In this document: one piece after another, positions 31,586-62,426 of the stretch
Layout: each line of letters begins with the position of its first letter
How positions within the stretch are numbered: position 1 is the stretch's first letter
Origin: Minisyncoccota bacterium
GTDB taxonomy: Bacteria; Patescibacteriota; Minisyncoccia; Phycocordibacterales; UBA918
Direction of reading: 5' to 3'
NCBI GenBank assembly: GCA_021734905.1
Contig: JAIPIB010000003.1
Coordinates: 1,334-65,333, forward strand
Length of the DNA: 64,000 nt
Notes under the pieces: model-generated
The model's input: the letters and a program-made list of their open reading frames with translations, nothing else
Told to the model about the DNA's origin: nothing
The model's database searches: none
Translations under genes and position numbers: made by a program

Positions 31586-31651
31586 AAAAATCCGCAACAA
31601 GCGGATTTTTGCGTTACTGCTGCAACGACAGAACAGTCTGGGAGACTGTTC
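31586..31651 (+). terminator. two consecutive perfect stem-loops after tRNA-Gln
   Basis: AAAAATCCGC-AACAA-GCGGATTTTT (31586-31610) and GAACAGTCT-GGG-AGACTGTTC (31631-31651). Confidence 0.6.
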
Positions 31652-31840
31652 GAAAGGGCTCGAAGACCTTGCCAGATATTTTATGACGTAAGGAAATAAA
31701 ATATCGACAAGATATACTACCTATGTAATGGGAGAGACCTTTTGTCAGGCAGCAATGCATAGAAATTACGAAATTTCTGTTTCATACTCACAACTCTGTA
31801 CGATGTAGGCTTCTTCATCTTATTAATTTGATATACTTTT

Positions 31841-56298: not shown

Positions 56299-57507
56299 CT
56301 ATAGTGAAAAATTCTTTATAGAATACATATCTGAAGAGTCATCTTCTTCTGATTGTGCCTGGATGGTTTGAGGGTTACTTTCTTCAATTCTTTGATTTTG
56401 AACTGCTTGCTGAATAGGTTCCGACTCTGTCAATTGATATTCTGTTTCAATCAAATCATCTTCTATTTCAGTACCTTCTGGGACCTCAAGTGTGTCATGT
56501 CGAGTATACACATCCTCATCAACTGGAGCCTCTGCAAGTAATTCTTCTTCAGGATTATTAAGTACTGGTATTTCATCATTGGGTTTAATTTCCGGAGTCG
56601 GGACTTCATCTGCACTCACAAGTGGCGTTGCTGCTGTGACATGCGCAAGAATTTTTCTATCAGTATTTCCATTAGCAGATTCAGCTTTATGCACCATTTC
56701 AAGTAACTTTCGAAGATCCTCTGGTGCAAAGTAGTCAATAGTAAGTTTACCGCCAAAATCAGTTTTAAGAATTTGTACTCGTGTTCCGAATGTTTCTGTA
56801 AATTGTCTTTCAATTTCGATAAGTTCTGGATCAGAATTTTGCCAGTCCTTCTTCCGAACTTTATCAGATGCTATTTTTCGAGTAATACGCTCCACCTCAC
56901 GCACAGAAAGTTTTTTGAGTAGAATCTCTCGAAAAACAACATCTTGTTCTACTTGTCTATCGTTAAGCATAAGTAGCGTTCTTGCGTGTCCGTCAGAGAT
57001 ATCGTTCACTCGTAATGCGTTTAGAATCACTTCCGGAAGTCCGAGAAGTCGGATTGAGTTAGATACATATTCACGACTACGTCCAACCTTTTGTGCAACT
57101 TGTGCATGTGAGAGGCCGAATTTTTCAGAAAGTTGCTTAAACGCGAGAGCGCGGTCGACCGCATTAAGATCCTCTCGTTGTAAATTCTCGATAATTGCAA
57201 GCTCAAGCTTCATGAGCTGCGACTCCTCACCAGAACGGATAATAACCGGCACTTGAGCAAGGCCAGCTAGTTTTGAAGCTCGAAGTCTCCGTTCTCCAGC
57301 AATAAGTTCATACTCAGTAGAAAAAGCTCCGTTCTCGGCCATTATCTCCCGGCGAGTTACAACGAGTGGTTGCAAGATCCCGTACATTCGAATCGATTCA
57401 GAGAGCTCCTGAAGTTTATTTGGATCAAATTCACGACGTGGTTGGAATGGATTTGGAACAACTTTTTCCACCTCAATCCAAAAAATTGAATTACTTTCGT
57501 ATGCCAT
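56299..57507 (-). CDS. ParB/Spo0J-like protein with long acidic C-terminal tail (orphan; no parA adjacent)
   Basis: ParB box FQPRREF...GILQPLVV...YELIAGERRLRASKLAG, HTH LSHAQVAQKVGRSREYVSNSIRLL. Start set to the internal Met at 57507 because the longer ORF overlaps the tRNA-like element. Confidence 0.7.
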   Translation of the reverse strand: MAYESNSIFWIEVEKVVPNPFQPRREFDPNKLQELSESIRMYGILQPLVVTRREIMAENGAFSTEYELIAGERRLRASKLAGLAQVPVIIRSGEESQLMKLELAIIENLQREDLNAVDRALAFKQLSEKFGLSHAQVAQKVGRSREYVSNSIRLLGLPEVILNALRVNDISDGHARTLLMLNDRQVEQDVVFREILLKKLSVREVERITRKIASDKVRKKDWQNSDPELIEIERQFTETFGTRVQILKTDFGGKLTIDYFAPEDLRKLLEMVHKAESANGNTDRKILAHVTAATPLVSADEVPTPEIKPNDEIPVLNNPEEELLAEAPVDEDVYTRHDTLEVPEGTEIEDDLIETEYQLTESEPIQQAVQNQRIEESNPQTIQAQSEEDDSSDMYSIKNFSL

Positions 57508-57583
57508 AGCGACATTGTAGCATATGATATATTCCCAGCCTGTGTATAATTTGATACACTTCGGATGACGTTCTTCCCAGTGT

Positions 57584-57713
57584 GCCGGGATGGCGGAATT
57601 GGTATACCGTGAATCAGTGCCCCGCACTGATTCACCAACTCAAAATCGTGTATCGAAAGGTTTGAGGGCTGAAACAATATGGGGTATTGTTTCAGGAGGT
57701 TGTCGAGATTTTA
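57584..57713 (+). other. degenerate partial copy of tRNA-Leu (5' two-thirds) interrupted by two perfect 27-nt hairpins, ending in conserved AGGAGGTTGTCGAGATTT
   Basis: GCCGGGATGGCGGAATTGGTATAC matches tRNA-Leu positions 1-24 (21/24); AACTCAAAATCGTGT matches the anticodon loop region; AAGGTTTGAGGG matches variable/T-stem; hairpins at 57609-57635 and 57669-57695; no 3' acceptor complement found. Confidence 0.7.
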
Positions 57714-57730
57714 TTATTCGTGTTCATAGT

Positions 57731-57812
57731 GCTGGAGTGGCGGAATTGGTATACGCGCGCGACTCAAAATCGCGTTCCGCAAGGATTGAGGGTTCAAGTC
57801 CCTCCTCCAGCA
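57731..57812 (+). tRNA. tRNA-Leu (anticodon CAA), type II
   Basis: acceptor GCTGGAG/CTCCAGC, D-arm GCGGAATTGGTATACGC, anticodon stem CGCGA/TCGCG with loop CTCAAAA, 13-nt variable arm, T-arm GAGGG-TTCAAGT-CCCTC, discriminator A. Confidence 0.85.
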
Positions 57813-57963
57813 CTGTGAACGAGAATTAAAAAAAATTATACAACCTGAACAGAATTCGTAGAATTCAAGTCCCTCTCCCGGCACAGCGCTTCTTAACTAA
57901 GTATCTATCCCTGAATACAAAAAACCCGTCGTAAAGTACGGGTTTTTCGTACTGCGACGGATT

Positions 57964-58569
57964 CTACCTTCTGCAAAGCATGTTATATGTTTGAGCTGAC
58001 TTTCTCTCCCTAAGCCATGTACCAACGGACTCATTGCCGACAGCAATTTCATTAGTGGTCGCCCAATCCAAACCAGTTTTGCCATGACGAAAAAGACAAT
58101 GGCCAAAACGTGCAACATCAAACTTGCCGTCACAAGGCTCAACAACTTTCTCAATTGCAAAATATGGCTGAAAGCTATTTCGGCGATATCGCAGCTTGAG
58201 GGTAATTTCCGAAAGAACAGGGACAAGGACCTTATTTGGAGTGACGGTATAGATGAGCTCTGTTCCTCCTTTTTCCTCGGGAACTTCTTCAATCTGACCG
58301 TCAGCAATACGGGCAACAGAAACCCAATGCACGGTCTCTGCTACCATCTCTGACCCATGAGCAAAGCTATGAAAGCCACTTGGGACTTTAGAGATGAATT
58401 TGTGATACGCAAGAATAAGTTCCCCAGAAAATTTACGCACAGCGGGTGCAAAAACAGTTCGAACCAATCTTCTCTGAAGTCCGTCGCGCAATCCTGCGAT
58501 AGGCTTTTCCGCAGAGTCCCAAATTTGTTTTAAGACGAGTACTTCTGGCGTACTTGTTGTGATAATCAC
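57964..58569 (-). CDS. hypothetical protein
   Basis: 201-aa ORF divergent from miaA; not confidently assigned. Confidence 0.4.
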   Translation of the reverse strand: MIITTSTPEVLVLKQIWDSAEKPIAGLRDGLQRRLVRTVFAPAVRKFSGELILAYHKFISKVPSGFHSFAHGSEMVAETVHWVSVARIADGQIEEVPEEKGGTELIYTVTPNKVLVPVLSEITLKLRYRRNSFQPYFAIEKVVEPCDGKFDVARFGHCLFRHGKTGLDWATTNEIAVGNESVGTWLRERKSAQTYNMLCRR

Positions 58570-59596: not shown

Positions 59597-59710
59597 ATGT
59601 TTTTTTAATACACTCTACGTCACGAGTTGCTAAACAAATTGCTTCGCAAACCTGTAATTTGTTAAGCACTCTCGACCCCGACTCGCTTGCCTACCGGCAT
59701 CGCTTCGTCT

Positions 59711-59772
59711 CCCGCAGAGGTAAAAGAAAAAGAGCATGCAAATGCATGCTCTTTTTCTTTTACCTCTGCGGG
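59711..59772. terminator. 62-nt perfect palindrome (29-bp arms) abutting and overlapping the 3' end of tRNA-Trp; bidirectional terminator candidate between miaA and tRNA-Trp
   Basis: CCCGCAGAGGTAAAAGAAAAAGAGCATGC-AAAT-GCATGCTCTTTTTCTTTTACCTCTGCGGG; last 4 nt overlap the tRNA acceptor 3' end. Confidence 0.7.
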
Positions 59773-59839
59773 CCCACGTGGAATCGAACCACGGCCACTG
59801 GTTTTGGAGACCAGCATTCTACCTCTAAACTATAGGCCC
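59769..59839 (-). tRNA. tRNA-Trp (anticodon CCA)
   Basis: minus-strand cloverleaf: acceptor GGGCCTA/TGGGCCC, anticodon stem CTGGT/ACCAG with loop CTCCAAA, T-arm CGTGG-TTCGATT-CCACG, discriminator G. Confidence 0.8.
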
Positions 59840-59889
59840 AGACGTCAACCATAGTACGGGAAACGGATACTATGGTCAACGGAAGACTC

Positions 59890-60836: not shown

Positions 60837-60893
60837 GCGTCGGTGGCAGAGTGAGAAAGTCTGGTAGACTTTCGCAAGAGGTTGTCGATATTT
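60837..60893 (+). other. 17-nt exact copy of the tRNA-Tyr 5' end followed by a hairpin and conserved AAGAGGTTGTCGATATTT, ~140 nt upstream of tRNA-Tyr
   Basis: GCGTCGGTGGCAGAGTG identical to tRNA-Tyr positions 1-17; hairpin GAAAGTCT-GGT-AGACTTTC (60855-60873); motif shared with the tRNA-Leu upstream element. Confidence 0.7.
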
Positions 60894-60993
60894 CGTTGAG
60901 AAATATCATACAATCTGAACAGCGCCTGTAAGGCGGTAACGAAGTCAAATGCCTGTTATAATCAAAGCGTCTTTGATGACAGGTCAACATAAT

Positions 60994-61076
60994 GCGTCGG
61001 TGGCAGAGTGGTCAATTGCAGGAGACTGTAAATCTCCCGGATTTATCCTACGCAGGTTCAAATCCTGCCCGGCGCA
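60994..61076 (+). tRNA. tRNA-Tyr (anticodon GTA), type II
   Basis: acceptor GCGTCGG/CCGGCGC, anticodon stem GGAGA/TCTCC with loop CTGTAAA, long variable arm, T-arm GCAGG-TTCAAAT-CCTGC, discriminator A. Confidence 0.85.
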
Positions 61077-61085
61077 CATTTTAAG

Positions 61086-61106
61086 GCACCCCATTTGGGT
61101 GCTTTT
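61086..61106 (+). terminator. stem-loop plus T-run immediately after tRNA-Tyr
   Basis: GCACCC-CATTT-GGGTGC-TTTT. Confidence 0.5.
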
Positions 61107-61226
61107 AAAATGTGTGACAGGAGGAAGACACTCAATGTGTCTTCCGTCAGGATTTGAAAAGGTTGCCAGCGATTTTGAAGAATGAAAAATCGTGGCAACC
61201 TGTACCGGTCATGTAATGACCAAAAT

Positions 61227-61242
61227 TCCTGCCCGGCGCACA
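61227..61242 (+). repeat. 16-nt direct repeat of the tRNA-Tyr 3' end (att-like)
   Basis: TCCTGCCCGGCGCACA occurs at 61063-61078 (tRNA 3' end) and again at 61227-61242; the intervening ~150 nt contains three hairpins. Confidence 0.8.
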
Positions 61243-61859: not shown

Positions 61860-62426
61860 TCACAGATACTTTAGTCGAAGTCCTTCATTTTTTAAGTCAC
61901 ACAATGAATCGTATATGTCATGCATTACAACCCGCAACATCCGAAAATGTGTAAAGTTGTGTGCCACACACCCGTCTGCAATGAAGTTGTGCTCACCCTG
62001 TGTATACAGGTTAAACACTGGTTCAGTTGTTCCGGTTGGCGCAATACTCTTGATACAAGAATGTGCCGCTTTTGACGAACTGATGCGCATGATGCTGTCA
62101 CCTGGACTGAGCTTTTTAATCGACTGATATCCTTTATCAGTCATAAAGCTATGGCCCAAAGTACAGATCATTCCAACATCATCTGATTCAAAAGTTACAT
62201 TGACCAGTGGTGCTGGTTCGTGAACCAACTTGCGAGTGATTCGTCTTGGGACCAAAATGCCCTTTTTGTATGACAGAACCATTTCCCCTTCGGACAAATC
62301 TCCGATAGGAATTTTGCCACTCGGTGTTTCTATAAGTGTAGACTTGGGGAAACAATCCCAAGAATATTCAATACCTCTGGTACCTGCGCCTGGCAAATCA
62401 TTATCTACGTCAGAGTGCTTACCCAT
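61860..62426 (-). CDS. free-standing Hint/mini-intein-like (bacterial intein-like) domain protein
   Basis: block A CFPKSTLIETPSGKIPIGDL after a 24-aa leader; block B TLGHSFMT; blocks F/G EPVFNLYTQGEHNFIADGCVAHN; 31-aa tail after the HN beginning with Phe, not Cys/Ser/Thr. Confidence 0.7.
   Translation of the reverse strand: MGKHSDVDNDLPGAGTRGIEYSWDCFPKSTLIETPSGKIPIGDLSEGEMVLSYKKGILVPRRITRKLVHEPAPLVNVTFESDDVGMICTLGHSFMTDKGYQSIKKLSPGDSIMRISSSKAAHSCIKSIAPTGTTEPVFNLYTQGEHNFIADGCVAHNFTHFRMLRVVMHDIYDSLCDLKNEGLRLKYL

What the first reader, a model, noticed from the sequence alone, without database searches (positions are those of the whole stretch)
57584..57713. tRNA-Leu pseudo-copy with two inserted 27-nt perfect hairpins directly upstream of the intact tRNA-Leu
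About 150 nt upstream of tRNA-Leu(CAA) the sequence re-plays the tRNA: positions 1-24 (GCCGGGATGGCGGAATTGGTATAC, 21/24), the anticodon loop region (AACTCAAAATCGTGT vs GACTCAAAATCGCGT) and variable/T-stem (AAGGTTTGAGGG). It is interrupted by two perfect hairpins of identical length (27 nt: 12-bp stem/3-nt loop and 11-bp stem/5-nt loop), has no 3' acceptor strand, and ends in AGGAGGTTGTCGAGATTT. This may be a disrupted older tRNA copy hit twice by a hairpin-forming mini-insertion, a tRNA-like leader or decoy, or the footprint of an element that targets tRNA genes. The alternative start of the ParB-like ORF overlaps it.
Basis: seen in the sequence. Interest (0 to 1): 0.7.

Follow-up and report, generated by a model that had tools for sequence, protein, structure and literature searches.

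The report
tRNA gene nested inside split tRNA
The "pseudo-tRNA" is the front part of an old tRNA-Leu gene that was split by a 195-base structured insert carrying the working tRNA-Leu, and that insert belongs to a widespread hairpin-module family at tRNA genes of Patescibacteria that I could not find in Rfam 15, in phage or plasmid records, or in the papers I searched.

Summary
The pseudo-copy (57584-57668) does have a matching 3' end (T-loop, T-stem, acceptor; 57864-57883). It lies downstream of the intact tRNA-Leu(CAA) (57731-57813). The locus is therefore one old tRNA-Leu(CAA) gene enclosing a second, intact one.

The outer gene sits directly behind the promoter that drives a simple tRNA-Leu in relatives, and it is 90% identical to one such gene. 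It is broken twice:
- A 27-nt CCC-loop hairpin, shared with the disrupted tRNA-Leu copies of three other genomes.
- A 195-nt insert at tRNA position 53/54.

The insert is a three-hairpin module: a GGG-loop hairpin; P1 with base AGGTTGYC...RCAAYCTG; a linker CTGWACNG; and P2 with a GTA loop running into the T-loop. The intact tRNA sits on a long stem at the tip of P1.

The same module flanks tRNA-Tyr and tRNA-Gln in this window. Its stems covary strongly, and G·U pairs favour the tRNA-sense strand. Rfam, phage and plasmid records and the literature I searched show nothing like it.

The inner tRNA is most likely the working gene, cut from one composite transcript. The module's own function is unknown.

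The parts
57543..57550 (+). Extended -10 promoter element TGTATAAT, inside the conserved block cTGTGTATAATTTGATAcAC
   Evidence: The same block lies just upstream of the simple tRNA-Leu(CAA) in L005, L008, L132, L133, L134 and L136, and of the disrupted copy in L135. Promoter function is inferred. The sigma-70 scan did not list it because there is no -35 element.
57584..57668 (+). 5' part of the outer (ancestral) tRNA-Leu(CAA): acceptor GCCGGGA, D arm, hairpin 1, anticodon loop CTCAAAA (anticodon CAA at 57641-57643), variable arm and T-stem 5' strand GAGGG.
   Evidence: Direct repeats D1 and D2 against the intact tRNA. It is 90% identical to the simple gene of L136, against 77% to its own inner tRNA. 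Its acceptor is the same as in L001 and L136.
57609..57635 (+). Hairpin 1: 12-bp perfect stem with a CCC loop. Together with its flanks (CGTGA...TCACCAA) it replaces the D-stem 3' strand and anticodon-stem 5' strand (GCGCACGA).
   Evidence: It is identical in L131. L026 and L132 carry it at the same site with changes on both arms that keep the pairing.
57669..57863 (+). 195-nt insert between tRNA positions 53 and 54 of the outer gene
   Evidence: Its boundaries follow from the outer T-stem GAGGG (57664-57668) and from the T-loop and T-stem TTCAAGT CCCTC (57864-57875). Relatives have uninterrupted genes at this site.
57669..57695 (+). Hairpin 2, the first hairpin of the module (here called Hg): CTGAAACAATA-TGGGG-TATTGTTTCAG
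   Evidence: The same hairpin type (CTrAAAC...GGG loop...GTTTyAG) directly precedes the module in L060, L048, L103, L113, L026 and L135.
57697..57730 (+). P1 5' arm (AGGTTGTCGAGATTTTATTA) running into the leader strand of the stem that carries the inner tRNA
   Evidence: Inverted repeats I1 and I2, the MFE fold, the family pattern, and 14 of 16 leader-trailer positions paired.
57731..57813 (+). Intact inner tRNA-Leu(CAA), acceptor GCTGGAG/CTCCAGC
   Evidence: ARAGORN. Rfam tRNA model, 60 bits.
57814..57846 (+). Trailer strand of the inner-tRNA stem, then the P1 3' arm (...AAATTATACAACCT)
57845..57866 (+). Linker CTGAACAG and hairpin P2 (GAATTC-GTA-GAATTC). The last three bases of P2 (TTC, 57864-57866) are T54-C56 of the outer T-loop.
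   Evidence: Covariance-model hit at 57822-57865, 20.5 bits, E = 4.7e-4. It matches the family consensus.
57864..57883 (+). 3' part of the outer tRNA-Leu: T-loop TTCAAGT, T-stem CCCTC, acceptor TCCCGGC and A73
   Evidence: Direct repeat D3 (86% to the inner 3' end) and inverted repeat I7 (10 of 10 with the outer 5' end). The MFE fold closes the whole 300-nt domain with this acceptor helix.
57916..57951 (.). Hairpin with flanking A and T runs: the likely terminator of the composite transcript
   Evidence: Inverted repeat I3, 14 nt, 93%. It is homologous in L007, L134 and L135. The consensus scan did not list it.
60838..61242 (+). Second case of the same architecture: tRNA-Tyr(GTA) (60994-61077) lies between a 5' fragment of itself (60838-60854) followed by a module (60855-60935), and a downstream module (61160-61220) followed by a copy of its 3' end (61221-61242).
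   Evidence: Covariance-model hits of 53 and 61 bits. Homologous arrangement in L005 and L134.
31631..31752 (+). Degenerate module downstream of tRNA-Gln(TTG): a GGG-loop hairpin, an antisense T-arm piece, the P1-P2 unit (31666-31732) and a decayed copy of the tRNA 3' end
   Evidence: Covariance-model hit of 33.9 bits, E = 5e-8.

Best explanation
What it is. The reported stretch is the 5' 85 nt of the ancestral tRNA-Leu(CAA) gene of this Paceibacteria (Parcubacteria/Patescibacteria) chromosome. That gene is split. Its last 20 nt lie 195 nt further on, beyond the intact tRNA.

Two insertions break the outer gene:
- A 27-nt CCC-loop hairpin sits at the junction of the D arm and the anticodon arm.
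- A 195-nt insert sits between T-stem position 53 and T-loop position 54.

The 195-nt insert is one copy of a three-hairpin structured module:
- a GGG-loop hairpin;
- a long hairpin P1 with the conserved base AGGUUGYC/RCAAYCU;
- the linker CUGWACNG;
- a short hairpin P2 with a GUA loop, whose 3' arm is made of the T-loop bases.

Here the tip of P1 carries a complete replacement tRNA-Leu(CAA) on its own leader-trailer stem. The module belongs to a large family that sits in or beside tRNA genes, always in the sense orientation. It is accompanied by sense and antisense pieces of the neighbouring tRNA, and an intact tRNA copy is always kept next to it or inside it.

How it works (inferred).
1. The ancestral promoter transcribes the whole roughly 380-nt unit up to the hairpin at 57916-57951.
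2. The RNA folds into nested helices: outer acceptor and T stem, hairpins 1 and 2, P1, and the inner cloverleaf.
3. The inner tRNA is released by RNase P and 3' processing, probably helped by a double-strand-specific cut in the long P1/leader-trailer helix.
4. The two outer pieces are left as a base-paired by-product that cannot act as a tRNA.

The module itself is a duplicative structured element whose hairpins are kept by selection on the sense single strand, most simply the RNA.

Shown: the anatomy, orthology of the outer gene, recurrence of the module, covariation, strand asymmetry, and absence from Rfam 15 and from the phage and plasmid records searched.

Inferred: transcription, processing, that the outer gene is non-functional as a tRNA, and how the module spreads.
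For: Anatomy:
- The repeats and inverted repeats define the outer 5' and 3' parts and the insert.
- The 313-nt region folds to -128.8 kcal/mol, z = -9.1, with the outer acceptor helix closing the domain and the inner cloverleaf on top of a long stem.
- With both insertions removed, ARAGORN calls tRNA-Leu(caa).

Orthology of the outer gene:
- Synteny TopA-RelA/SpoT-ParB-tRNA-Leu-MiaA is conserved.
- The same TGTATAAT block precedes simple genes in L005, L008, L133, L134 and L136.
- The outer gene is 90% identical to L136's gene, against 77% to its own inner tRNA.

Related disrupted copies next to an intact tRNA-Leu occur in L007, L026, L131, L132 and L135. The outer 5' and 3' parts enclose the intact gene in L131 as well.

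The module family:
- The motif recurs at tRNA-Tyr (twice) and tRNA-Gln in the window. These, with the Leu copy, are the only four covariance-model hits below E = 1e-3 in 64 kb, and all are on the + strand.
- The metagenome pattern scan reached its 120-stretch limit.
- P2 is fully paired in 102 of 122 distinct copies, against 7% when the arms are re-dealt among copies. There are 47 different P2 arm sequences.
- On 52 aligned copies, 90.7% of cells are paired against 74.9% after shuffling. The covariation score is 0.384 against 0.112, with 0 of 500 shuffles as high, and all five P2 pairs change on both sides.
- Where an intact tRNA was called within about 300 nt of a copy (about 55 of 131 copies, most 50-120 nt downstream of it), it was on the same strand in all but one case, and 13 isotypes are involved. 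In 27 copies an exact copy of at least 16 nt of the sequence that follows P2 lies within 700 nt upstream; in 21 of these it is inside the called tRNA, so P2 is followed by a copy of that tRNA's T-loop-to-3'-end.

Spread: an identical 92-nt block sits at two different tRNA loci in L097. Modules are nested inside the hairpin loops of other modules in L026 and L028.

Single-strand structure: G·U pairs number 50 on the sense strand against 11 on the antisense strand in P1, and 164 against 38 in the upstream hairpins.

Not a described family: no Rfam 15 match, no blastn match in phage or plasmid records, and nothing in six literature searches.
Against: - There is no expression or processing data, so every RNA-level step is inference.
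- The outer copy is better conserved than a dead gene should be. A 46-nt stretch including hairpin 1 is identical between the window and L131, whose MiaA proteins are only 66% identical. The outer stems also remain paired. This argues that the outer shell has a function I have not identified.
- No enzyme that could move the module was found, and no clean target-site duplication or terminal repeats define a transposon.
- In the sample in hand, only this genome has a tRNA inside P1, so the nesting could be a one-off rearrangement rather than a property of the module.
- The G·U strand asymmetry fits single-stranded DNA as well as RNA.
- The taxonomic range of the 120 metagenome hits was not established.
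Confidence: 0.6

Rival explanations
1. The outer shell and its modules are a selected, cis-acting RNA domain rather than a broken gene plus a selfish insert. In this view a tRNA-shaped outer helix (acceptor and T stem) and the hairpins act as a handle or scaffold for RNase P, 3' processing or RNase III, as a decoy, or as a regulator of maturation of the enclosed tRNA.
For: - Hairpin 1 and its flanks are identical over 46 nt between the window and L131, although MiaA is only 66% identical.
- Hairpin 1 shows compensatory changes in L026 and L132.
- The outer acceptor (7/7), T stem (5/5) and variable-arm stem all remain paired.
- The ACTCAAAA anticodon-loop block is invariant in all 18 aligned sequences.
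- The structure is on the sense strand.
- The same enclosing arrangement is found at tRNA-Tyr, and in L131 and L005.
- Leader-trailer pairing is usual for this tRNA in the clade: 12-15 of 16 positions are paired, even in simple genes.
- The hairpin 1 loop (CCCC in the window, UCCCA in L026) is complementary to the hairpin 2 loop (GGGG, UGGGA) in both genomes.
Against: - Close relatives manage with a plain gene behind the same promoter (L005, L008, L134, L136).
- The disrupted copies differ widely in what they keep. The 3' acceptor is absent in L007, L026 and L135. The 5' acceptor is absent in L132. The module is largely deleted in L131.
- In L026 and L007 the disrupted copy is identical to the intact copy over 25-28 nt. 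That fits gene conversion rather than selection.
- No partner protein or ligand is known.
Confidence: 0.2
2. The outer gene is a functional tRNA with introns. Hairpin 1 and the 195-nt insert are removed from the RNA, and the locus yields two tRNA-Leu(CAA) species.
For: - The insert is a clean interruption at position 53/54, and the outer stems are intact.
- ARAGORN accepts the sequence as tRNA-Leu(caa) once both insertions are deleted.
- Group I introns are common in Patescibacteria tRNAs (PMC13011429).
- In L007 the 35-nt hairpin in the anticodon loop is a clean insertion.
Against: - No group I or group II intron model, nor any other Rfam model, matches.
- Hairpin 1 is not a clean insertion. 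It replaces GCGCACGA by CGTGA...TCACCAA, so the D stem and anticodon stem cannot both form after removal.
- No bulge-helix-bulge motif is evident at the junctions.
- Every genome examined keeps an intact copy beside the disrupted one.
- Most family members keep only the ends of the tRNA, so they could never give a tRNA.
- In 95 complete Patescibacteria genomes only Asn and Asp tRNAs were missing, and group I introns explained those.
Confidence: 0.07
3. The repeats are scars of site-specific integration. One or more integrase-driven elements entered the tRNA-Leu gene at the T-loop, brought a copy of the tRNA 3' end, and were later almost wholly deleted.
For: - The T-loop-to-3'-end segment is directly repeated after the intact tRNA.
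- It is repeated exactly in many family members, which is the classic attL/attR picture.
- The T-loop is a known crossover site for tRNA-targeting integrases (my own knowledge of that literature).
Against: - No integrase or element body is present. Only 50 nt lie between the intact tRNA and the repeat. The eight large ORFs between 52 and 64 kb that I scanned against Pfam are housekeeping or unassigned and include no integrase.
- 5' fragments upstream of the tRNAs are not produced by 3'-end integration.
- The outer and inner acceptors differ and each pairs with its own partner, so the intact gene lies inside the insert rather than at one junction.
- A scar would not keep three covarying hairpins in over 100 loci, nor a sense-strand G·U bias.
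- No phage or plasmid record matches.
Confidence: 0.07
4. The locus is a tandem duplication followed by random decay, and the hairpins are chance palindromes of no significance.
For: A duplicated tRNA gene next to a working one is free to decay.
Against: - Both exact hairpins were absent from 100 shuffles of the window.
- The same hairpin 1 sits at the same site in four genomes.
- The module recurs with covariation in more than 120 loci.
- The 5' and 3' parts enclose the intact gene rather than lying in tandem with it.
Confidence: 0.03

Closest known systems
[quoted passage not shown] 2026, PMC13011429)
   Same: The host phylum is the same. Both interrupt tRNA genes, and standard tRNA finders miss the interrupted gene.
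   Different: Those are self-splicing ribozymes of over 200 nt in the anticodon loop (35/36 and neighbouring positions) of the only gene copy, and Rfam models detect them. Here the insert is at 53/54, matches no intron model and carries a whole tRNA, and an intact copy is always present. That paper does not mention these modules.
Archaeal non-canonical tRNA introns and split or permuted tRNAs (Thermoproteales, Nanoarchaeum; my own knowledge)
   Same: Insertions lie in D-loop, T-loop and other non-canonical positions. Leader-trailer helices flank the tRNA body. Pieces of a tRNA are held together by an added helix. Intron-like units appear to have moved between tRNA genes.
   Different: Archaeal introns are defined by a bulge-helix-bulge motif cut by the splicing endonuclease, and the interrupted gene is the functional one. 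No such motif is evident here, the host is a bacterium, and the interrupted copy looks non-functional as a tRNA.
Intervening sequences and processing stems of bacterial rRNA operons, cut by RNase III (my own knowledge)
   Same: Extended hairpins are inserted into loops of stable-RNA genes. A long leader-trailer helix encloses the mature RNA and offers a double-strand nuclease site.
   Different: These are known for rRNA, not tRNA. They do not carry a second copy of the host gene and have no conserved P1-linker-P2 core.
Transcribed structured repeat elements (REP/BIME, Neisseria Correia elements; my own knowledge)
   Same: They are short (about 100-150 nt), dispersed, non-coding and hairpin-forming, have many copies, are co-transcribed with neighbouring genes, and in some cases are strand-specific.
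   Different: Those elements are not tied to tRNA genes, do not carry sense and antisense pieces of the neighbouring gene, and have defined terminal repeats or an associated transposase. None of these was found here.
Integrative elements that target tRNA genes (attL/attR repeats of the tRNA 3' end; my own knowledge)
   Same: The T-loop-to-3'-end segment is directly repeated, and an intact tRNA is preserved.
   Different: There is no integrase and no cargo. 5' fragments and antisense copies are present, and the intact gene lies inside the insert.
GOLLD RNA with an embedded tRNA (Weinberg et al. 2009; my own knowledge)
   Same: A tRNA sits inside a larger structured non-coding RNA, and the RNA is associated with tRNA loci.
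   Different: GOLLD is about 800 nt, is phage-linked and has an Rfam model that does not match here.

Membership tests
Canonical bacterial tRNA gene (the outer copy) | Cloverleaf recognised by ARAGORN or the Rfam tRNA model | tested here: not met
   Only the inner gene is called, including in ARAGORN's intron mode on the whole locus. A tRNA-Leu(caa) call appears only after the 195-nt insert and about 26 nt of hairpin 1 are deleted.
Canonical bacterial tRNA gene (the outer copy) | Paired acceptor, T and variable-arm stems, and an anticodon loop of 7 nt | tested here: inconclusive
   The acceptor (7/7), T stem (5/5), variable-arm stem and CTCAAAA loop are intact. The D-stem 3' strand and anticodon-stem 5' strand are replaced by CGTGA...TCACCAA.
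Group I intron in a tRNA gene | Match to the group I intron covariance model (P3-P9 core) | tested here: not met
   There is no such hit at the gathering threshold or at E up to 10 in 57400-58100.
Group I intron in a tRNA gene | Insertion in the anticodon loop of the functional gene copy | tested here: not met
   The insert lies between positions 53 and 54, and an intact copy is present.
Archaeal-type bulge-helix-bulge intron | Two 3-nt bulges separated by a 4-bp helix at the exon-intron junctions | tested here: inconclusive
   None was seen by inspection of the junctions GAGGG|CTGAAAC and GTAGAA|TTCAAG or in the MFE fold. No dedicated search was run.
Archaeal-type bulge-helix-bulge intron | A splicing endonuclease and an RNA ligase encoded by the genome | not tested
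   Only 64 kb of the genome is in hand.
Integrated element at a tRNA gene (attachment-site scars) | Direct repeat of the tRNA 3' segment flanking the inserted DNA | tested here: met
   57793-57813 vs 57864-57884, 86%. The repeat is exact in many family members.
Integrated element at a tRNA gene (attachment-site scars) | An integrase gene and element cargo between the repeats | tested here: not met
   Only 50 nt separate the repeats. None of the eight large ORFs between 52 and 64 kb that I scanned against Pfam is an integrase.
MITE/REP-like repeat element | Many dispersed, similar, short non-coding copies | tested here: met
   There are 4 copies in the window and at least 120 stretches in metagenomes. 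An identical 92-nt block sits at two loci in L097.
MITE/REP-like repeat element | Defined terminal inverted repeats and a target-site duplication, or an associated transposase | tested here: not met
   No constant termini or short duplication were seen at the clean insertions (window Leu at 53/54; L005 Tyr D-loop). No transposase was identified.
The three-hairpin tRNA-locus module defined here (membership of the window's Leu insert) | P1 base AGGTTGYC...RCAAYCT followed by CTGWACNG | tested here: met
   AGGTTGTC at 57697 and ACAACCTGAACAG at 57840-57852.
The three-hairpin tRNA-locus module defined here (membership of the window's Leu insert) | A P2 hairpin of 5-6 bp with a GTA loop, whose 3' arm runs into the T-loop TTC | tested here: met
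   GAATTC-GTA-GAATTC at 57852-57866, followed by AAGTCCCTC. Covariance-model hit of 20.5 bits.
The three-hairpin tRNA-locus module defined here (membership of the window's Leu insert) | A GGG-loop hairpin immediately upstream, and sense orientation relative to the tRNA | tested here: met
   Hairpin 2 at 57669-57695 has the loop TGGGG, and all parts are on the + strand.
Any described RNA family (Rfam 15) | A covariance-model match to the module | tested here: not met
   No family other than tRNA or 5S rRNA reached its threshold in the window or in seven typical family loci.

The most novel reading that the evidence does not exclude
Many tRNA genes in Patescibacteria are embedded in a previously unrecognised class of modular structured RNA. 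A three-hairpin unit, together with sense and antisense pieces of the host tRNA, builds a tRNA-shaped outer shell around or beside the real tRNA. The units spread between tRNA loops through a single-stranded (RNA or ssDNA) intermediate. The shell is functional, for example as a processing handle, a decoy for tRNA-binding enzymes or nucleases, or a maturation switch in which the antisense piece pairs either with the real tRNA 3' end or with its copy. The window's tRNA-in-tRNA locus would be the most complete example.
Probability: 0.3. Interest if true: 0.9.

Novelty: new variant of a known kind. Interest (0 to 1): 0.75.

Why it matters
If this holds, tRNA loci in a very large and poorly understood bacterial group carry a conserved, covarying RNA module that Rfam 15 and the papers I could search do not describe.

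- It would explain odd 'tRNA fragments' and long intergenic regions in otherwise streamlined genomes.
- It would give annotators a model for recognising disrupted tRNA copies.
- It raises testable questions. How are tRNAs cut out of nested precursors in organisms with few RNases? Can a small non-coding element spread specifically into tRNA loops while always preserving a working gene? Do tRNA-shaped shells act as processing handles or decoys?
- A complete tRNA gene sitting inside the T-loop of another tRNA gene is, to my knowledge, not a described arrangement in bacteria.

Tried and rejected
- **Rfam.** I scanned the whole window at gathering thresholds, 57400-58100 at E up to 10, and seven typical family loci at E up to 1. 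Only tRNA and 5S rRNA were found, so known ribozymes, introns, GOLLD, ROOL, T-box and Y-RNA-like families are set aside.
- **Viral contigs.** The family pattern gave two hits. Both are chance matches inside coding-like sequence, with no hairpin.
- **Phage and plasmid records.** blastn with a typical module found nothing.
- **Genome-collection scan with MiaA.** It returned only three distant loci at 44-46% identity. These were useful only for showing a plain tRNA-Leu with the GCCGGGA acceptor in a Saccharibacteria genome.
- **Promoter and terminator scans.** Neither the conserved TGTATAAT block nor the 57916-57951 hairpin was listed. Promoter-like hexamers inside the module were dismissed because P1 length varies.
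- **Diversity-generating retroelement idea** (template and variable repeat). Rejected because the differences between outer and inner genes are not adenine-specific (by inspection).
- **TIGR/box C-D guide arrays** (PMC12045711). The module has no consistent box C/D pair and is not arrayed.
- **Integron attC, dif/Xer, IS200/IS605 and IS91 end structures.** I considered these from memory. The conserved bases do not fit, and none explains the tRNA pieces.
- **Literature.** Six searches found no description of the module or of nested bacterial tRNA genes.
- **The 201-aa ORF at 57964-58569.** It has no Pfam match and is also present in relatives with a plain tRNA gene, so it is unrelated to the locus.
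Full report
**1. What is in the sequence**

ARAGORN and Rfam find one intact tRNA-Leu(CAA) at 57731-57813.
- 57582-57607 repeats the acceptor and D arm (88%).
- 57638-57673 repeats the anticodon loop, variable arm and T-stem 5' strand (81%).
- Two perfect 27-nt hairpins lie at 57609-57635 and 57669-57695. Neither occurred in any of 100 shuffles of the window.

TTCAAGTCCCTCTCCCGGCAC at 57864-57884 repeats the T-loop, T-stem 3' strand and acceptor 3' strand (86%). TCCCGGCACA is also a perfect 10-nt complement of the start of the upstream copy. The outer acceptor (GCCGGGA/TCCCGGC) differs at three positions from the inner one (GCTGGAG/CTCCAGC), and each pairs perfectly with its own partner.

The locus is therefore one tRNA-Leu(CAA) gene split between positions 53 and 54 by a 195-nt insert (57669-57863) that contains a second, complete tRNA-Leu(CAA). 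The 313-nt region folds to -128.8 kcal/mol (z = -9.1). The outer acceptor helix closes the domain, and the inner cloverleaf sits on a long stem. If the insert and about 26 nt of hairpin 1 are deleted in silico, ARAGORN calls tRNA-Leu(caa).

**2. Host and orthology**

The window is a bacterial chromosome encoding TopA, RelA/SpoT, ParB, MiaA, a type IV secretion pilin and PspC. The closest MiaA (98%) is from a 'Candidatus Pacebacteria' MAG. Other close MiaA proteins are from Kaiserbacteria and Parcubacteria. That MAG's locus (L004) is identical to the window over the stretch compared.

The gene order TopA-RelA/SpoT-ParB-tRNA-Leu(CAA)-MiaA is conserved in eleven further loci. In L005, L008, L133, L134 and L136 a plain tRNA-Leu(CAA) follows a conserved cTGTGTATAATTTGATAcAC block. 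In the window the same block (TGTATAAT at 57543-57550) sits just before the outer 5' end. The outer gene is 90% identical to L136's plain gene over alignable columns, but only 77% identical to its own inner tRNA. The outer gene is thus the ancestral resident and the inner one a replacement.

**3. The same locus in relatives**

Five other genomes have a disrupted tRNA-Leu copy next to an intact one. The arrangements differ:
- **L007:** the outer 5' part carries a clean 35-nt hairpin in the anticodon loop, followed by the intact gene.
- **L026:** the copy is heavily interrupted, with modules nested in its D-loop, a homologue of hairpin 1, and a module before the T arm. The intact gene and miaA follow.
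- **L135 (closed genome CP064968.1):** outer positions 1-47 are followed by a module, then the intact gene.
- **L131:** the disrupted copy carries a hairpin 1 identical to the window's. A stem-flanked intact gene follows, and then a 21-nt copy of its 3' end. The 5' and 3' parts enclose the intact gene here too, but the module is mostly deleted.
- **L132:** the intact gene comes first, followed by a disrupted copy with a hairpin 1 homologue and a complete T arm.

The four copies with hairpin 1 share a derived change. CGTGA...TCACCAA replaces GCGCACGA, which is the D-stem 3' strand, position 26 and the anticodon-stem 5' strand. Hairpin 1 is therefore old. Its stem shows changes on both arms in L026 and L132 that keep the pairing. 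A 46-nt stretch around it is identical between the window and L131, although their MiaA proteins are only 66% identical. A dead gene should not be that well conserved. This is the main reason I keep a functional-shell rival at 0.2.

**4. The insert is one member of a large family**

Reading that locus showed the same plan:
- tRNA-Tyr (60994-61077) is preceded by its own first 17 nt (60838-60854).
- It is followed by a copy of its last 19-22 nt (61221-61242).
- A hairpin module lies next to each of these fragments.

The shared core is AGGTTG(C/T)C - hairpin - (G/T)ACAA(C/T)CTG(A/T)AC.G - a 5-bp hairpin with a GTA loop. A pattern scan for this core gave only two chance hits in viral contigs.

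In those hits the parts not fixed by the pattern behave as conserved structure:
- P2 is fully paired in 102 of 122 distinct copies, against 7% when the arms are re-dealt. There are 47 different arm sequences, and every pair position shows all four Watson-Crick types.
- The interior of P1 folds far better than shuffles, with a median z of -4.6.
- On a 52-sequence alignment, 90.7% of cells pair against 74.9% after shuffling. The covariation score is 0.384 against 0.112 (0 of 500 shuffles), and sliding the partners drops pairing to 35-53%.

A covariance model built from that alignment finds four hits below E = 1e-3 in the 64-kb window. All are on the + strand and all are at tRNA loci. Two are at Tyr (61 and 53 bits), one is at Gln (34 bits), and one is at Leu (20.5 bits, with P1 split by the inner tRNA). 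tRNA-Trp has none.

**5. Context of family members**

- An intact tRNA was called within about 300 nt of about 55 of the 131 copies. It was co-oriented in all but one case, and most of these copies lie 50-120 nt downstream of it. Thirteen isotypes are involved.
- In 27 copies the sequence that follows P2 has an exact copy of at least 16 nt within 700 nt upstream. In 21 of these that copy lies inside the called tRNA, so P2 is followed by a copy of that tRNA's T-loop-to-3'-end.
- In this downstream context, an antisense copy of the same segment usually lies between the terminator-like hairpin and the module. It is often interrupted by a GGG-loop hairpin of the form AGAAAG...CTTTCG.
- Other copies follow a 5' fragment of a tRNA that ends in the D arm. 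The intact tRNA then lies downstream (L029, L129, window Tyr, L005 Tyr).
- A third context, to which the window's Leu insert belongs, has the T-stem 5' strand, a CTrAAAC...GTTTyAG hairpin, the module and then the T-loop (L060, L048, L103, L135).
- The 3' arm of P2 regularly ends in T54-T55(-C56) of the tRNA piece that follows.
- Modules also sit inside the loops of other modules' hairpins (L026, L028).
- In L097 an identical 92-nt block lies at the tRNA-Lys(CTT) and tRNA-Leu(TAG) loci, 890 nt apart. The block runs from the antisense T-loop through P1, the linker and P2 to the T-loop. At the Lys locus it carries the Leu-type T-loop. That is evidence of recent copying between different tRNA loci.
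- Among all loci in hand, only the window and its near-identical MAG have a tRNA inside P1.

**6. RNA or DNA?**

G·U (G·T) pairs are much more frequent on the tRNA-sense strand than on the other strand. The counts are 50 against 11 in the interior of P1, and 164 against 38 in the hairpins just upstream. A structure selected in duplex DNA, such as a cruciform or symmetric protein sites, would show no such bias. The structure therefore acts in the sense single strand. That is most simply the RNA made together with the tRNA, although a sense-strand ssDNA intermediate is not excluded.

**7. How the locus most likely works**

The following steps are inferred.
1. Transcription starts after the conserved TGTATAAT.
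2. It runs through the outer 5' part, hairpins 1 and 2 and the P1 5' arm, then through the inner tRNA, then through the P1 3' arm, the linker, P2 and the outer 3' part.
3. It ends at the hairpin at 57916-57951. No terminator-like site lies in between on the + strand.

The inner tRNA stands on a helix that continues its acceptor stem, with 14 of 16 leader-trailer positions paired. The same kind of leader-trailer pairing (12-15 of 16) is found for this tRNA in most relatives, plain genes included. Together with P1 this gives a roughly 40-bp interrupted helix, a plausible double-strand nuclease substrate. RNase P and 3' trimming would finish the tRNA.

The outer pieces cannot form a normal D or anticodon stem, so they are not a tRNA.

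**8. What the module is**

I commit, with moderate confidence, to a duplicative structured element of tRNA loci. It is tolerated because an intact tRNA is always kept or brought along. How it moves is not known, and neither is whether the tRNA-shaped shell has been put to use.

**9. What it is not**

- **Known RNA families.** No group I or II intron, known ribozyme, T-box, GOLLD, ROOL or Y-RNA-like family matches.
- **Integrase scars.** There is no integrase or cargo, 5' fragments and antisense copies are present, and the intact gene lies inside the insert.
- **TIGR/box C-D array**.
- **Chance**.

The recent survey of tRNA introns in Patescibacteria describes only group I introns in the anticodon loop and does not mention these modules. 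It also shows that tRNA sets are otherwise complete in 95 closed genomes. That fits modules never occupying the only copy of a gene.

**10. Verdict**

- The finding leads to a widespread, covarying module family at tRNA genes of Patescibacteria that I could not find described, and to a tRNA-inside-tRNA arrangement that I cannot find described for bacteria.
- The function of the module and of the conserved outer shell remains open.

Noticed in passing
window 60838-61242: tRNA-Tyr(GTA) lies between a 17-nt copy of its own 5' end and a 19-22-nt copy of its 3' end, with one hairpin module on each side. There is also an antisense T-arm piece (61114-61159) that carries its own small hairpin. The 409-nt region folds to -169 kcal/mol (z = -8.5). 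L005 and L134 have a larger version spanning about 820 nt.
   Followed up: partly
window 31631-31752: Downstream of tRNA-Gln(TTG) lie a GGG-loop hairpin (AGAACAGTCTGGGAGACTGTTC), an antisense T-arm piece, a degenerate module (34 bits) and a decayed copy of the tRNA 3' end.
   Followed up: partly
window 59620-59880 (minus strand): tRNA-Trp has no module but sits between long perfect hairpins: a 13-bp stem upstream (about 59844-59880) and a 26-bp stem directly after its 3' end (about 59712-59768). A segment follows (...GCGAAGCAATTTGTTTAGCAACTCGTGA) that resembles a second conserved module seen after tRNA-Lys in L011 and in L106.
   Followed up: no
window 57609-57635 and 57669-57695; L026 4167-4193 and 4219-4245: The loop of hairpin 1 is complementary to the loop of hairpin 2 in both genomes: CCCC with GGGG in the window, and UCCCA with UGGGA in L026. 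This could be a loop-loop contact, or just a consequence of hairpin 1 being an inverted copy of the GGG-loop hairpin type.
   Followed up: no
flanks of tRNA-Leu(CAA) in the window, L005, L007, L131, L132, L134, L135: The 16 nt before and after this tRNA are complementary at 12-15 positions and include N73, even in plain genes. The acceptor stem is thus extended by a leader-trailer helix, which is unusual for bacterial tRNA genes.
   Followed up: partly
L097 300-480 and 1190-1370: An identical 92-nt module block sits at two different tRNA loci (Lys-CTT and Leu-TAG) 890 nt apart. At the Lys locus it carries the Leu-type T-loop.
   Followed up: yes
window 61860-62426 (minus strand): A 188-aa ORF has weak Hint and intein-splicing domain matches and no recognisable host protein around them. 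The same ORF is called in the related MAG.
   Followed up: no
L133 4289-4998: In one relative a free-standing LAGLIDADG endonuclease ORF (193 aa), preceded by a long perfect hairpin, lies between the plain tRNA-Leu(CAA) and miaA.
   Followed up: no
window 56299-57627 (minus strand): The 442-aa ORF that overlaps the finding is an artefact of taking the first GTG. ParB starts at the ATG at 57507 (402 aa), 77 nt before the outer tRNA.
   Followed up: yes
L134 3515-3585: In a relative with a plain tRNA-Leu, a GGG-loop-type hairpin and module remnants lie in reverse orientation between parB and the tRNA promoter. The covariance model gives 17 bits on the minus strand.
   Followed up: no
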